A stretch of 63,845 bases of DNA, from contig DAIQAO010000005.1 in the NCBI GenBank assembly GCA_036781645.1, forward strand, positions 1 to 63,845. The letters are read 5' to 3'. The DNA comes from Dissulfurispiraceae bacterium (GTDB lineage Bacteria; Nitrospirota; Thermodesulfovibrionia; Thermodesulfovibrionales; Dissulfurispiraceae). The position numbers were made by a program. Position 1 is the stretch's first letter. Every line of letters begins with the position of its first letter. Shown here in pieces: positions 43,601 to 49,600 of this stretch.

Positions 43601-46600
43601 ATGTGTTGCCCTTCGGCATGCTCAGGGTGACACATTGTTATGGTTATGCGGGTTCAGGGTATTAATCGGAACCCGCTTTTTATGTTAATTATAGAGCAGC
43701 TTAATGCTTAAAATATACTAAACTTAAAATATTTTTTAGGATTTTCTTTCACATCCTTTGTCAGAAGTTTAAGTTCTTCAACAACATCTCTAAGATTCAC
43801 CACTGTTTGTTTTAACTCGCCAGCCAGTTCCTTGTCTTTCAAAAGAGTCCCGGCAATTCCTTCCTTTTCATTGATACTCTGAACTATGGAGGCAAGCTGG
43901 GCAGATGTTTCAGTAAGACTATCATAAAGGGTGGTGTCCACAGCGAGCTTCCCTAGCGTTCCTTTACCCTCGCTAATGCCTGTTGTCAGGTTGTCAATCT
44001 TCTCAGTTGCGGCAGAGATCTTGTTATACAAAACCGGGTCTTTAAGCAGCAAGCCGAGGGTGCCTTTTGAAGTTTCTATTTCGCCCAATATTGATGAAAG
44101 CTTTTTAGTTGAATCGCTGAGGTTGCGATAAACTGATGGATCTGATATAAACTGTCCCAGAGTGCCTTCGCTTTTTTCTATTTTCAAAAGGAATTGGTCG
44201 AGCTTATCAACAAAATCTGTGATTTTGCCTATCAAGCCAGCGCTTGCATCAACAATGTCCTTAATCTCGAGCTGGGGTCTGCCTTCTATCATATCGCCCT
44301 TTTTTAAAGGTAAGGCGCTTGGAGAACCAGATGAGAGTTCGATATACTTATCTCCCAGAAGCCCCATCGTCTGAACAGTCGCCTTAGAATCTTTTTTAAT
44401 GAAGCTCAACAGGTCCTCTCTAACGGATATGGTGACCAAAGTTCCATACTGTTCGTGGAGTTTCATATTCTTTACAGCACCTACTTCAATTCCGGCTATC
44501 CATACAGGCGAACCGTTCCGAAGCCCTTTTACATCGTTAATCTGGACTATGATATCGGCTTTAGGGATAAAAATATCCTCAATCCTACCTGCAAAAAATG
44601 CTGTAAAAAAGAGAATCAAAACGGCAATTGTCAGAACTATGCCGACCTTAAGTTTTGACCACAATAGTTGTTTTTTTGTCTCAAACATTTAAGCCCCCTG
44701 CTTATTGTGATATCTTGTAATTAAGCTCGCTTACAAATACCGCTATATCGGTAATGTCAGATTTTAAAAGTTGATACTTGTCACCGTCCAGAACTATTGA
44801 GCCGTTTTGGAGGAATATGAATCTATCGGCAACCCTCAGAGCATCAACTACCTTGTGAGTTACGATTATATGCCCTGTGCCATTTTTACTCAACTCGGTA
44901 ATTAAATTACAAATATTTTCTGCATTCACAGGATCGAGACCTGTCGTAGCTTCGTCATATAAGAACATCTTGGGCTTAGAGACAGCAAGGGAACGGGCTA
45001 TCGCAACCCTCCTGTGCATCCCGCCGCTGAGTTCATCAGGCATGTAATTGATTGCGTGTTCAACACCGACAATCCTGAGCAGTTCCCTTACTTTAAGGTC
45101 AATCTCTGCTTCTGACATTTTTGTATATTCTCTTAGACAAAAGGCAACATTTTCCTTTACATTCAAAGAGTCGAAAAGGGCGCCATCCTGAAAAACAATG
45201 CTGAACTTTTTTCTAACCTCCATAAGTTCGTCTTCACTCTTGTCTGTTATATCATCGCCGTCAATCAAAATCCTCCCAGAATCTGGCTTCAGAAGACCAA
45301 CTATCAGCTTGAGTATAGTCGTCTTGCCTCCTCCGCTGCCGCCCAAGATAGCGACTTTCTCAGTCTCCAGGAGACTGAAGTTAACATCTCTCAATATCTG
45401 ATTTTTACCATAAGAAAAAAAGACATGCTCAAAAACAATCATATCGTAAACCCAAGAACATAAAGCAAAATCCTTGTAAGCATAAAGTCAGAGATAATAA
45501 TCATGATAATCGACACCACAACAGCATTGGTCGTTGACCTTCTTAATCCCTTCGCCCCACCTTTGGTGGTAAGACCCATATAACAACTTATAGATGCAAT
45601 CAAAAACCCAAACATGAAGGGTTTCACTGCCCCGGAAAATACATTCTCAAAGTCCAAGACATCCTTTATAGAGGTCCAGTAAACATAGCCGCTTTGATAG
45701 CTTACAAAAACAGCTATGTAATATCCCCCCAGTATCGAGACGAGATCGCCAATGATTGTAAGGGCAGGAAGCATAAGAAGGGAACTGATTATCCTTGGCG
45801 TCACGAGTTTTTTAATTGGATCTACACCAAATACCCTTAATGAGTCAACCTGATGGCCAATGACCATTGAGCCAAGCTCAGACGCCATCCCGGCACCAAC
45901 TCTACCGGTATATACAAGTGCAGCGGTAACTGGTCCGACTTCCCTGATAATCGAAATACCTACCACTTTTCCCGTGTACATTTTAAGTCCGAGAGCTGCA
46001 AGTTCGGCTGAAAGCTGAAGGGACAGTGCCATCCCTATGAAAAGGGAGACTATCATTATAATAATAAAGGAGCCTGCCCCTGCATAATCCATTTGTTCAA
46101 TTGTGTCTTTAAGGTAGAAAGGTCTTCTGAAAATCCCGAGTAACCCTTTAATGGAGAGTATGTAATAATCCTGAAGTTCGCTTATGAGATTTTTGATTTT
46201 TTCATCCATCGGGGTAATCATTTAAAACCTTGCGTGATTTTAAAAGAGAGTATATAAATATAGCTCGAAATAATAATTGGAAGTTTAACACAATAATTAA
46301 AACCATTCAAAATTGCCTGCCGAAAATTAAAACACTAAAAGGAAAATTCCCAGAATAAGGGCAAAGTTATTACCATTGTCATAAAAATCCTATCGCTGAT
46401 TTTCCTTCCTATCTAACTTCTTGACTTTAGAGCACTTTTTAGTTTTATCGCTGATTTTGGGTTTTTTTTAATTCTTGAATTATTTAGCTAAAATATTTTA
46501 AAATCTTTAGCACGGAAATACAAGGAGGTGAATTATTGGTTAAGATACGTTTAACGAGAATGGGGGCTCTCAAAACTCCTTTCTACAGAGTGATAGTCGC

Positions 46601-49600
46601 CGATTCGAAGGCAAGAAGAGACGGACCATTTATAGAGATAATAGGAACATACGACCCTAAAAAAGAACCAAGCGAGATTAAACTGAATTTAGAGCGAGCT
46701 CAATATTGGATTAGCCGGGGCGCTCAACCTACAGATAGAGTTAAAAGGCTAATAGAAAAAGCTAAAACTTAAAATGAATTCTTAATTAAGCGATCTGGGG
46801 CGCCTATCAAAATCCTGTGGAGGTGGAACAATGAAAACATTGATTGAGGTGATGGCAAAATCACTAGTTGACAAGCCTGATGAAGTTAGGGTGTCAGAGG
46901 TTGAGGGAGAAAAGACTACCGTTTATGAACTTCGAGTTGCCCAAGGCGACCTTGGCAAGGTTATTGGCAAACAAGGTAAAACCGCTCGTGCAATGAGAAC
47001 TATTCTTGGGGCTGCAGGCACAAAACTTGGTAAGCGTTGTGTTCTTGAAATATTAGAATAGTTTCTTTTGGTTGATTCTGAATCTGGGCGTTCCTCTCTG
47101 AACGCCCTTTTTGTTTAATAAAATAACTATTGCTAAAAGAGAGTATTTTTTTGCATGGCTCTATTTGCAGATGAAAGCAGGTTTTGACATAATTACTATT
47201 TTCCCGGAAATATTTTCGTCTTATCTCGGTGAAAGTATTCTCCAAAGGGCATTGGAAAAGCATCTCATCGATATAAAAATATATAATCTAAGGGATTTCT
47301 CGGAAAATAAACACAAGACTGTTGATGATTACCCCTATGGCGGTGGTCCTGGCATGGTCATGAAAATTGAGCCAATCTTTAATGCTATCGGATCAATAAA
47401 ATCAGACGGAATCGAACGGTTAACAGTTCTTTTAAGTCCGCAGGGGAGGGTCTTTAATCAGAAAATTGCAGAATCGCTTTTGGGGCTTAATAAACGAATT
47501 ATTTTTTTATGCGGAAGATACGAAGGTATTGATGAAAGAGTTAGAGAATTATTTGCCGATGACGAGATATCTATCGGCGATTATATTATGACTGGCGGTG
47601 AACTTGCAGCTTTAGTTATAATAGACACTATTGCCCGCTTAATTCCGGGCGTTTTAGGCGATAACGAATCATTTAAAGAGGAATCCTTTACAAGCGGTAT
47701 ATTAGATTATCCGCATTACACAAGACCATCTGAGTTTAAGGGGATAAAGGTTCCCGAAATTCTGCTTTCAGGAAATCATCAGGAGATAAAAAGATGGCGT
47801 AGAGGGCAAGCATTAAGAAGGACGTTAATAAAAAGGCCTGATTTGATTGCGCCGGAAAAATTAAGTCAGGAGGATTATGAACTTTTAAGGTCTCTAAATA
47901 ATAATTCGTGAATAAAAAATCATTGGAGGTATAGAGATGGATTTAATAAAGGTTGTAGAGGAAGGATACAGAAAGGAAATCCCTAAATTCAACCCTGGAG
48001 ATACCGTCAGGGTATTTGTAAAGGTTGTAGAAGGGGACAAAGAGAGGCTTCAGCCTTATGAAGGAATAGTAGTAGCGAGGAGTGGCAGAGGCGTAAGAGA
48101 AACTTTTACGGTTAGGAAGATATCTTTTGGGGTGGGAGTTGAGAGGATATTTCCTGTCCATTCCCCATCTTTAGGGAAAATCGAGGTATTAAAAAGGGGC
48201 GATGTCAACAGGGCAAAGCTATACTATCTAAGAGGCAAAAAAGGCAAAGCCGCCAAGGTAAAAGAAAAGGGCAGAGACACACAGAAAACAGTTTAAGCCT
48301 TGTTATCCGGGATGCTTCTATACAAATTTGATGAATCCCTGTTTAACAGGGGTTACAGGACGTTTGCAGGATTGGATGAGGCAGGAAGAGGACCCCTTGC
48401 AGGCCCTGTAGTGGCTTCTGCGGTGATTCTCTGCCACGATAGAAAAATAGAAGGGATAAAGGACTCAAAAAAACTTTCCGAAAAACAGCGGGAAAGGCTT
48501 TTCTGTGCTGTCCTTGACAATGCGAAAGATATCGGCATAGGTATAGTAGATGCCGAGATAATTGACGAAATAAATATACTGAGGGCAACACGGCTTGCGA
48601 TGTATCTTGCCCTGAAAGATCTAAAGACAGAGCCTGATTTGCTGCTTATAGATGCTATTGCATTACCGTCTGTAAAGATAAAACAGATGCCTATTATTAA
48701 AGGCGATGCAAAAAGCGCTTCAATTGCTGCAGCATCAATAATAGCCAAGGTTATACGAGATGCGATGATGGTTCTTTATCATGATAAATATCCGCACTAC
48801 GGCTTTGCAAAGCATAAGGGATATCCCACAAAAGAGCATATAGCAAAACTGAGCTTACATGGAGCATGTACGATCCACAGAAAAAGCTTTCATGGTGTTA
48901 AATCTCTGCTTCTACCTTTTGCTTATTAATATTAACAATCTAATAAAAGGCTTCAATAAGAAGCACTCAGACGGAGGCAACATTGGAAAAAGAGAGAATA
49001 GATGAAGCGCTCGAACTCCTGTGGGTGCTTGATGAAGAGGGGTATAACGATTTAAAAAGGTTCAGACACAGCTCTGACGACCATGATATAGAGCTTCTGA
49101 TTGAAACGCTCATTAAAAACAATCTTGTCAAAATTGAGAATGATAAAATTTTCCTCACTCCTCGTGGAGTTGAGCTCGCTCGGGGGTTGATCAGGAGGCA
49201 TAGGCTCGCCAAAAGGCTTTTTACTGATGTATTTGATCTCTCAAAAGACATTATTCACGAAGACGCCTGCAAAATGGAGCATGTTCTAAGCGAGGAACTA
49301 ACTGATAGCGTTTGCACCTTTCTTGGTCATCCACCCAAATGTCCCCACGGAAAACCCATACCCCCTGGGGATTGCTGTAAAAAATATACTGTTGATGTCC
49401 AGCCTGTCGTTGTAAGATTATCCGATTTTGAAATTGGCAAGCCATGTAAGATAGTTTTTATTAAACCATCTGAGGCATCGAGGATAAGCCGTTTAAGTTC
49501 TTTCGGGATAATTGCGGGTGCAATTATTAAATTAATTCAAAAAAGACCTTCAGTAGTGTTGCAGATAGATGAAACGACAATCACCCTTGATCCAGAATTA

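What a model noticed while it worked through the whole genome (the two positions that open the first line are those of the whole stretch)
46536..48296. RimM deleted in place, repeatedly, in free-living Thermodesulfovibrionales
The rpsP-khpA-[rimM]-trmD-rplS operon has only 110 bp between khpA and trmD and no rimM is found elsewhere; uL30 is likewise cut out between rpsE and rplO. Boldest reading: these free-living bacteria mature the 30S head without RimM, and have lost it several times independently, so a RimM-independent assembly route or compensating uS13/uS19 changes exist. RimM is treated as near-universal in bacteria, so a free-living lineage without it would be new and a natural test bed for 30S assembly.
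Evidence so far: A relative's RimM gives no tblastn hit here. It is found in 7 of 21 genomes searched, 0 of 7 other genus members; the Pfam model agrees (7 over the cut, call 171). khpA-trmD gap is under 300 bp in 11 of 17 relative loci where both were found and 508-740 bp in the other 6, five of which keep rimM; short gaps occur in 5 families, long ones in 3. Ribosomal_L30 not found in 3 of 5 genomes tested, including one single-contig genome; rpsE-rplO gap is 11 bp (genes.tsv). Two paper searches showed no report of RimM loss in free-living bacteria.
(Added by a program. Inside this text positions count along the whole contig: contig position 1 is position 1 of the stretch shown here. "Call 12" and the like, gene names such as g00115 and contig names such as C1 are that model's own, and its searches are not shown. 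The text may have been shortened before it was handed on; [...] marks where a part breaks off. The agent that wrote the report below was given it as the finding of a first reader that could run no searches.)

Follow-up and report, generated by a model that had tools for sequence, protein, structure and literature searches.

The report
Ribosome helper RimM lost twelve times
A helper protein (RimM) that most bacteria use to build the small half of the ribosome is missing from about a dozen separate branches of one class of environmental bacteria, and in each branch the ribosomal protein it likely docks on has lost its matching tail, giving natural side-by-side pairs for studying ribosome assembly without the helper.

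Summary
Confirmed: khpA and trmD are 109 bp apart, and no rimM is found in the genome. RimM is not found in 125 of 201 genomes of the order. Outside the class 133 of 134 genomes keep it. A 28-protein tree gives 12 independent losses, and the RimM tree fits vertical descent within families.

New here: the uS19 C-terminal motif T/S/A-x-V-K, in the segment that contacts RimM in T. thermophilus, is kept in 70 of 70 RimM-positive genomes and in 2 of 106 without RimM. It is the only one of 2332 conserved columns altered in all 12 loss clades. I found no shared compensating change in uS13, the uS19 core, uS3, uS10, uS14 or 16S. Era, RbfA and RimP stay in this genome. uL30 loss is real but uncoupled.

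The novelty claim fails: RimM is also not found in 121 Planctomycetota or 121 Verrucomicrobiota genomes, and its near-absence in CPR is in print. This scan noted the PVC loss and tail loss before on other DNA. What remains is repeated, nested loss with matched sisters. Most likely RimM is an optional accelerator, deleted under weak selection, with the tail decaying afterwards.

The parts
46536..46772 (+). rpsP (bS16), TTG start
   Evidence: ORF; PF00886 E 1.6e-26
46831..47061 (+). khpA (KH-domain protein)
   Evidence: ORF; PF13083 E 3.6e-24
47062..47170 (+). 109-bp empty rimM slot, no RimM remnant
   Evidence: RimM-positive relatives have 500-1295 bp here
47086..47117 (+). terminator-like hairpin plus T run after khpA; a hairpin of -10 kcal/mol or better lies here in 55 of 59 RimM-negative and 27 of 40 RimM-positive loci, so it likely predates the deletion
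   Evidence: consensus match only, function not shown
47171..47911 (+). trmD (tRNA m1G37 methyltransferase)
   Evidence: PF01746 E 6.1e-64; TIGR00088
47937..48296 (+). rplS (bL19)
   Evidence: PF01245 E 3.2e-47

Best explanation
rimM is missing from its operon slot here and from 12 separate branches of this class, and these bacteria likely build the 30S head by the slower unaided loading of uS19, after which the uS19 tail that likely docked on RimM decayed. Shown: the absence, the count of losses on the tree, the match between RimM and the tail motif, and no shared substitute residue in the proteins tested. Inferred: RimM is only an accelerator whose benefit is too small to keep in slow growers; the deletion comes first and the tail then drifts; no replacement factor is needed. 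What makes this class, but not the rest of the phylum, able to drop it is not explained.
For: Losses: 125 of 201 order genomes without RimM against 197 of 201 with trmD; 133 of 134 outside the class keep it, and the one miss also lacks trmD. 12 Dollo losses on the 121-genome tree and in 10 of 10 bootstrap replicates on 65 of those genomes. Tail: motif in 40 of 40 RimM-positive and 2 of 66 RimM-negative genomes in the first set, and 30 of 30 against 0 of 40 in a hold-out set; uS19 V92 is the only one of 2332 conserved columns changed in 12 of 12 loss clades, next best 7 of 12. Tails without RimM are diverse, 4-24 residues after His83, against 10-12 in 36 of 40 with RimM, as relaxed selection predicts. 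Positions 88-93 align without gaps to a 93-residue uS19 in the PDB that I take to be T. thermophilus; in the T. thermophilus RimM-S19 crystal K88, K91 and K93 contact RimM, and residues 84-93 are absent from the M. tuberculosis ribosome structure (PMC8073977 section 3.7). G100 lacks RimM, has its operon broken at that slot and still has the full motif, which fits deletion before decay. E. coli without rimM is viable and its ribosomes mature late but fully (10.64898/2026.01.09.698670, passages). Codon bias in r-protein genes is near zero (S = -0.26 for G000 against its whole genome), which fits slow growth.
Against: Codon bias is equally low in RimM-positive relatives and outgroups (means -0.01 and -0.12 against -0.05), and the rest of the phylum keeps RimM, so slow growth does not explain which lineages lose it. 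Val92 is gone in every loss clade, even the two single-genome ones, which is also what an adaptive tail change would give. G100 is 96% complete and also lacks era, so its RimM may be unassembled. uS2, uS7, uS9 and expression levels were not tested; 16S was compared in only 7 positive and 12 negative genomes. The exact motif is local to the order: 2 of 8 RimM-positive genomes outside it match. The contact of the motif with RimM rests on another species' structure.
Confidence: 0.68

Rival explanations
1. The loss is compensated. Either the tail change is itself adaptive (the T-x-V-K tail makes uS19 depend on RimM and removing it frees uS19), or changes sit in parts not tested, or a change at the root of the class made RimM cheap to lose.
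For: Val92 lost in 12 of 12 clades. E. coli suppressors of rimM mutants map to S13, S19, 16S helices 31 and 33b and to rbfA dosage (PMC3575805, PMC9032327, passages). Within the phylum, losses are confined to this class. Weak candidates: uS14 S59A and uS10 K47R, each in 4 of 12 clades and 0 of the positives.
Against: No residue is gained in more than 7 of 12 clades, and the three at 7 are in 50S proteins. No 16S column separates 7 positive from 12 negative genomes. Replacement tails share no new feature. G100 seems to lack RimM with the tail intact.
Confidence: 0.17
2. An unrelated chaperone took over RimM's job in these lineages.
For: Whole gene contents of relatives could not be compared, so it is not excluded. 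KhpA, an RNA-binding protein in the same operon, is kept in most loci examined.
Against: No PRC-barrel match at all in closed RimM-negative genome G023, and only one in a long membrane-protein ORF in G000. KhpA is also in RimM-positive genomes. A replacement would have to be present before, or gained at, 12 separate losses.
Confidence: 0.1
3. RimM was lost only a few times and regained by horizontal transfer in families f1, f2 and f13.
For: Deep nodes of the RimM tree are weak and differ from the species tree (f2 with f4 at 78, f13 with f1 at 68).
Against: RimM of each family forms one clade (f1 99, f2 99, f4 98, f7 100, f8 84) and sits in the ancestral slot. The same TTSVKG tail, encoded in another operon, is shared by f1, f2 and f13, so a regain would have to rebuild it three times. 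Five losses are nested inside f1 and f4.
Confidence: 0.04
4. The absence is an assembly gap or a RimM too diverged to detect.
For: Most genomes are fragmented. G194 (79% complete) lacks trmD and khpA too; G100 may be a gap; in f11 the operon is split, so in-place deletion is not shown there.
Against: Short in-place gaps in 59 of 59 loci; single-contig genomes G023, G078 and G118 have no match; a second study's contig spans the junction; the partner motif in a distant operon is gone.
Confidence: 0.01

Closest known systems
RimM loss in CPR/Patescibacteria (Amikura et al. 2025, PMC12641178; read: part 1 of 4 of the preprint, passages, part 1 of the supplement and searched rows)
   Same: rimM missing: 0.4% of CPR genomes have it against 94.9% of non-CPR genomes. 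uL30 is absent there too.
   Different: CPR are tiny-genome bacteria that lost about half of all biogenesis factors. Here genomes are mostly 1.7-6 Mb, Era, RbfA and RimP are kept in this genome, and the loss is repeated and nested among sisters that keep RimM.
RimM absence in Planctomycetota and Verrucomicrobiota (tested here; earlier scan notes; no paper found)
   Same: Largely free-living bacteria with an empty rpsP-trmD slot; short Gly/Lys uS19 tails in the 3 Planctomycetota sequences printed.
   Different: Phylum-wide and likely one ancient event, so there are no close RimM-positive sisters to compare.
RimM in Mollicutes (Grosjean et al. 2014, PMC4014445; read: passages)
   Same: RimM is found only in a few members of a class; L30 is lost too.
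   Different: Parasites under genome reduction; the passages seen say nothing of a uS19 tail.
E. coli delta-rimM and its suppressors (10.64898/2026.01.09.698670, PMC3575805, PMC9032327; read: passages)
   Same: The 30S head can mature without RimM, with late loading of uS19, uS13, uS10, uS14 and uS3.
   Different: A laboratory deletion with a strong growth cost. Shared suppressor-type changes were not seen in the natural losses; the original suppressor paper (PMC1370667) was not held, so exact positions could not be checked.

Membership tests
True loss of rimM (not a gap, not a diverged copy) | No RimM homologue in the genome | tested here: met
True loss of rimM (not a gap, not a diverged copy) | Operon slot closed on one contig, confirmed independently | tested here: met
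   two other genomes of the genus have 179 and 205 bp
True loss of rimM (not a gap, not a diverged copy) | Ancestor had the gene | tested here: met
   133 of 134 outside the class; vertical family clades
CPR/PVC-type wholesale loss of 30S assembly factors | Era, RimP and RbfA lost together with RimM | tested here: not met
   G000 and G023 keep all three. Era is kept in f3 11/11, f9 6/6, f10 19/21, f12 19/21; not found in f11 0/20 and f13 0/1
CPR/PVC-type wholesale loss of 30S assembly factors | One ancient, lineage-wide loss | tested here: not met
   12 separate losses
Suppressor-type compensation of delta-rimM | Shared substitutions in uS13 or the uS19 core | tested here: not met
Suppressor-type compensation of delta-rimM | Changes in 16S helices 31 and 33b | tested here: inconclusive
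   no separating column, but only 7 positive and 12 negative 16S genes, two of the positives likely foreign
Suppressor-type compensation of delta-rimM | Raised rbfA expression | not testable with these tools
   rbfA present; expression not measured
RimM-uS19 docking pair | Tail residues 88-93 bind the RimM PRC barrel in this class | tested here: inconclusive

The most novel reading that the evidence does not exclude
The uS19 tail is a switch for RimM dependence. A change at the root of this class opened a RimM-free route to the 30S head, and dropping the T-x-V-K tail completes it, twelve times over. A few residues would then decide whether a ribosome needs this chaperone.
Probability: 0.17. 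Interest if true: 0.8.

Novelty: new variant of a known kind. Interest (0 to 1): 0.55.

Why it matters
RimM is called conserved in bacteria, sits in the bac120 marker set, and its deletion slows E. coli badly. Known absences (CPR, PVC) are ancient and come with much other change, so they cannot show what losing RimM alone requires. Here there are 12 replicate losses, five of them inside families whose other members keep the gene, and the other 30S factors tested mostly stay. Across 28 proteins the only consistent trace is the uS19 tail. That points to the tail as the part kept for RimM rather than for translation, and suggests that little else has to change. A tail swap in E. coli or in reconstitution can test it. 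The tail also predicts RimM status in incomplete genomes of this order.

Tried and rejected
Coupling with uL30: rejected. uL30 is absent in place in all 22 f1 genomes (14 of them RimM-positive) and in f14, and present in RimM-negative f9, f15, f16 and the RimM-negative f4 genera. Co-loss with Era, RimP or RbfA: rejected for most clades. RsgA was below the cut-off in all 4 order members tested, with or without RimM. Growth-rate proxy: no difference between groups, with a small local background for all but G000. G168 (f11) has a RimM match, but on a second trmD contig whose TrmD is at most 57% identical to anything sampled and whose RimM falls outside the class; I treated it as contamination and relabelled it negative before the counts. 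G189 has RimM in two pieces below the cut-off and was counted positive. Weak TIGR02273 hits in f4, f5 and f6 lie in 426-495-aa frames and were not counted. G027's motif match comes from an Ala/Lys repeat tail. G072 was left out of the tail-length count because its uS19 frame runs into uL22. No RNA holder listed. Nine paper searches found no report of RimM loss in Thermodesulfovibrionales, in free-living bacteria, or with uS19 tail decay. The 'rimM' hits in PMC12283558 and PMC6850669 were 'Rimmer' and 'rimmed'. PMC1370667 and PMC133445 were not held, most subscription papers are not searched, and the per-family heat map in PMC12641178 (a figure, not held) may already show these absences.
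Full report
Observation. The window holds rpsP (46536-46772), khpA (46831-47061), trmD (47171-47911) and rplS (47937-48296) on the + strand. Only 109 bp separate khpA from trmD, and they hold a terminator-like hairpin. RimM was not found in the genome by TIGR02273, PF01782 or a custom HMM at maximum sensitivity. The sole PRC-domain hit is the N-terminus of a long ORF that reads as an MgtE-type transporter. 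A contig from a second study spans the whole stretch. On contig C2 rpsE and rplO are 11 bp apart, so uL30 is absent in place.

Spread. In 201 genomes of the order, 76 passed the TIGR02273 cut-off. After relabelling G168 (contaminant contig) and G189 (split gene), 76 are positive and 125 negative. trmD was found in 197 of 201 and in 161 of 161 high-quality genomes. Families f2, f7, f8 and f13 are all positive; f3, f5, f6, f9, f10, f11 and f12 are negative; f1 and f4 are mixed. Outside the class 133 of 134 genomes have RimM, and the one miss also lacks trmD. Other orders of the class: f14 1 of 1, f15 0 of 1, f16 0 of 3. The khpA-trmD gap is -1 to 345 bp in 59 of 59 negative loci and 500-1295 bp in 39 of 39 positive loci; 26 of 124 loci lacked one of the two genes in the fetched piece. 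In f11, G042 and G100 the operon is split, so in-place deletion is not shown there.

Number of losses. A tree of 28 proteins (4236 columns) from 121 genomes gives 12 losses if RimM is never regained: f15+f16, G073, g66+g91, f9, f10, the window's genus g1, G133, g9+g6, f3+f5, f6, f11 and f12. Ten of ten bootstrap replicates on 65 of these genomes gave the same 12; ten is a small number. Two losses rest on one genome each, both 99-100% complete with short in-place gaps. RimM proteins of each family form one clade (support 84-100) while deep nodes are weak. Regain is unlikely because f1, f2 and f13 share the same uS19 tail in another operon.

The partner. uS19 of RimM-positive genomes ends in K-T-T-S-V-K-G or a close variant. 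V92 is invariant in the 36 sequences aligned. Of 2332 columns conserved at 85% or more in 40 positive genomes, only uS19 V92 departs in 12 of 12 loss clades; the next departs in 7. A motif defined on this first set matched 40 of 40 positive and 2 of 66 negative genomes, and in 70 further genomes 30 of 30 and 0 of 40. The hold-out genomes come from the same clades, so they test consistency, not independence. The window's genome ends uS19 in GSSKSAKD. The motif occupies residues 88-93, which align without gaps to a PDB uS19 that I take to be T. thermophilus. In the T. thermophilus RimM-S19 crystal K88, K91 and K93 contact RimM (PMC8073977 section 3.7). Outside the order only 2 of 8 RimM-positive genomes match the motif.

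No compensation found. No residue rare among positives is gained in more than 7 of 12 clades, and those at 7 are in 50S proteins. uS13 and the uS19 core show nothing shared. No 16S column separates 7 positive from 12 negative genomes. Tails without RimM vary from 4 to 24 residues after His83. G100 lacks RimM but keeps the full motif, with its operon broken at the slot. That fits deletion first, though G100 is 96% complete and also lacks era. Era was found in 163 of 201 genomes, missing mainly from f11 and f13. RbfA and RimP are in G000 and G023; RsgA is below the cut-off in all 4 order members tested. uL30 is also lost several times, overlapping with RimM loss but not tied to it.

Mechanism. 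Most likely RimM only speeds uS19 loading, and the head matures unaided, as in E. coli without rimM (10.64898/2026.01.09.698670, passages). In slow growers the gene can then be deleted, and its docking site decays. Codon bias near zero fits slow growth but is the same in RimM-positive relatives, and the rest of the phylum keeps RimM. Why this class sheds it is therefore open. Rivals are an adaptive tail change or untested compensation (0.17), a replacement chaperone (0.10), regain by transfer (0.04) and artefact (0.01).

Comparison and novelty. rimM is in 94.9% of non-CPR and 0.4% of CPR genomes (PMC12641178 Suppl. Table 3) and in only a few Mollicutes (PMC4014445). I found none in 121 Planctomycetota or 121 Verrucomicrobiota genomes (completeness not shown for these), including three complete chromosomes. 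A free-living lineage without RimM is therefore not unique, although nine searches found no paper that says so. This scan has noted the PVC loss several times, once with the uS19 tail; my PVC test and tail result came before that look-up. The new part is the repeated, nested loss with matched sisters and a single consistent molecular trace. Lifestyles of the uncultured genomes are inferred; the two runs that hold most of the window's stretch are hot-spring metagenomes, one of which may be its source.

Verdict. Real, well supported, a new variant of a known kind. Interest 0.55.

Noticed in passing
families f11 and f13 (e.g. G011, G024, G047, G013); G093, G113, G100: Era (TIGR00436) not found in f11 (0 of 20) or its sister f13 (0 of 1), nor in G093, G113 and G100. 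f11 thus seems to lack both Era and RimM.
   Followed up: partly
G000 C2:8667-8679 and loci L071-L194: uL30 is lost in place several times in the class (f1+f10, f3+f5, f6, f11, f12, f14), independently of RimM.
   Followed up: yes
G000, G023, G006, G016: RsgA (TIGR00157) is below the cut-off in all four order members tested, three of them single-contig.
   Followed up: partly
G000 C2:10429-10437 and C2:7434-7761: secY runs straight into map with no adk between them; a 326-bp gap lies between rplF and rplR.
   Followed up: no
L195 (G168:C42), L300 (G003 16S), L301 (G049 16S): Likely foreign contigs: a second trmD-rimM locus in G168 and two 16S genes unlike the rest of the class.
   Followed up: partly
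L276 (G100:C18) and L258 (G100:C12): In G100 khpA is followed by ruvA-ruvB-like genes and trmD is preceded by a ruvC-like gene, a rearrangement with its break at the rimM slot (gene names from my reading).
   Followed up: partly
window 39055-40653 (-): 532-aa PIF1/RecD-like helicase with a C-terminal stretch that looks like a WYL domain (names recalled, not searched).
   Followed up: no
window 49663-53971 (+): Three genes resembling NuoE-, NuoF- and NuoG-like subunits, the last fused to a GltD-like flavin domain: a possible electron-bifurcating complex (names recalled, not searched).
   Followed up: no
L103:3212-3821: In G072 the uS19 frame runs into uL22, probably a sequencing frameshift.
   Followed up: no
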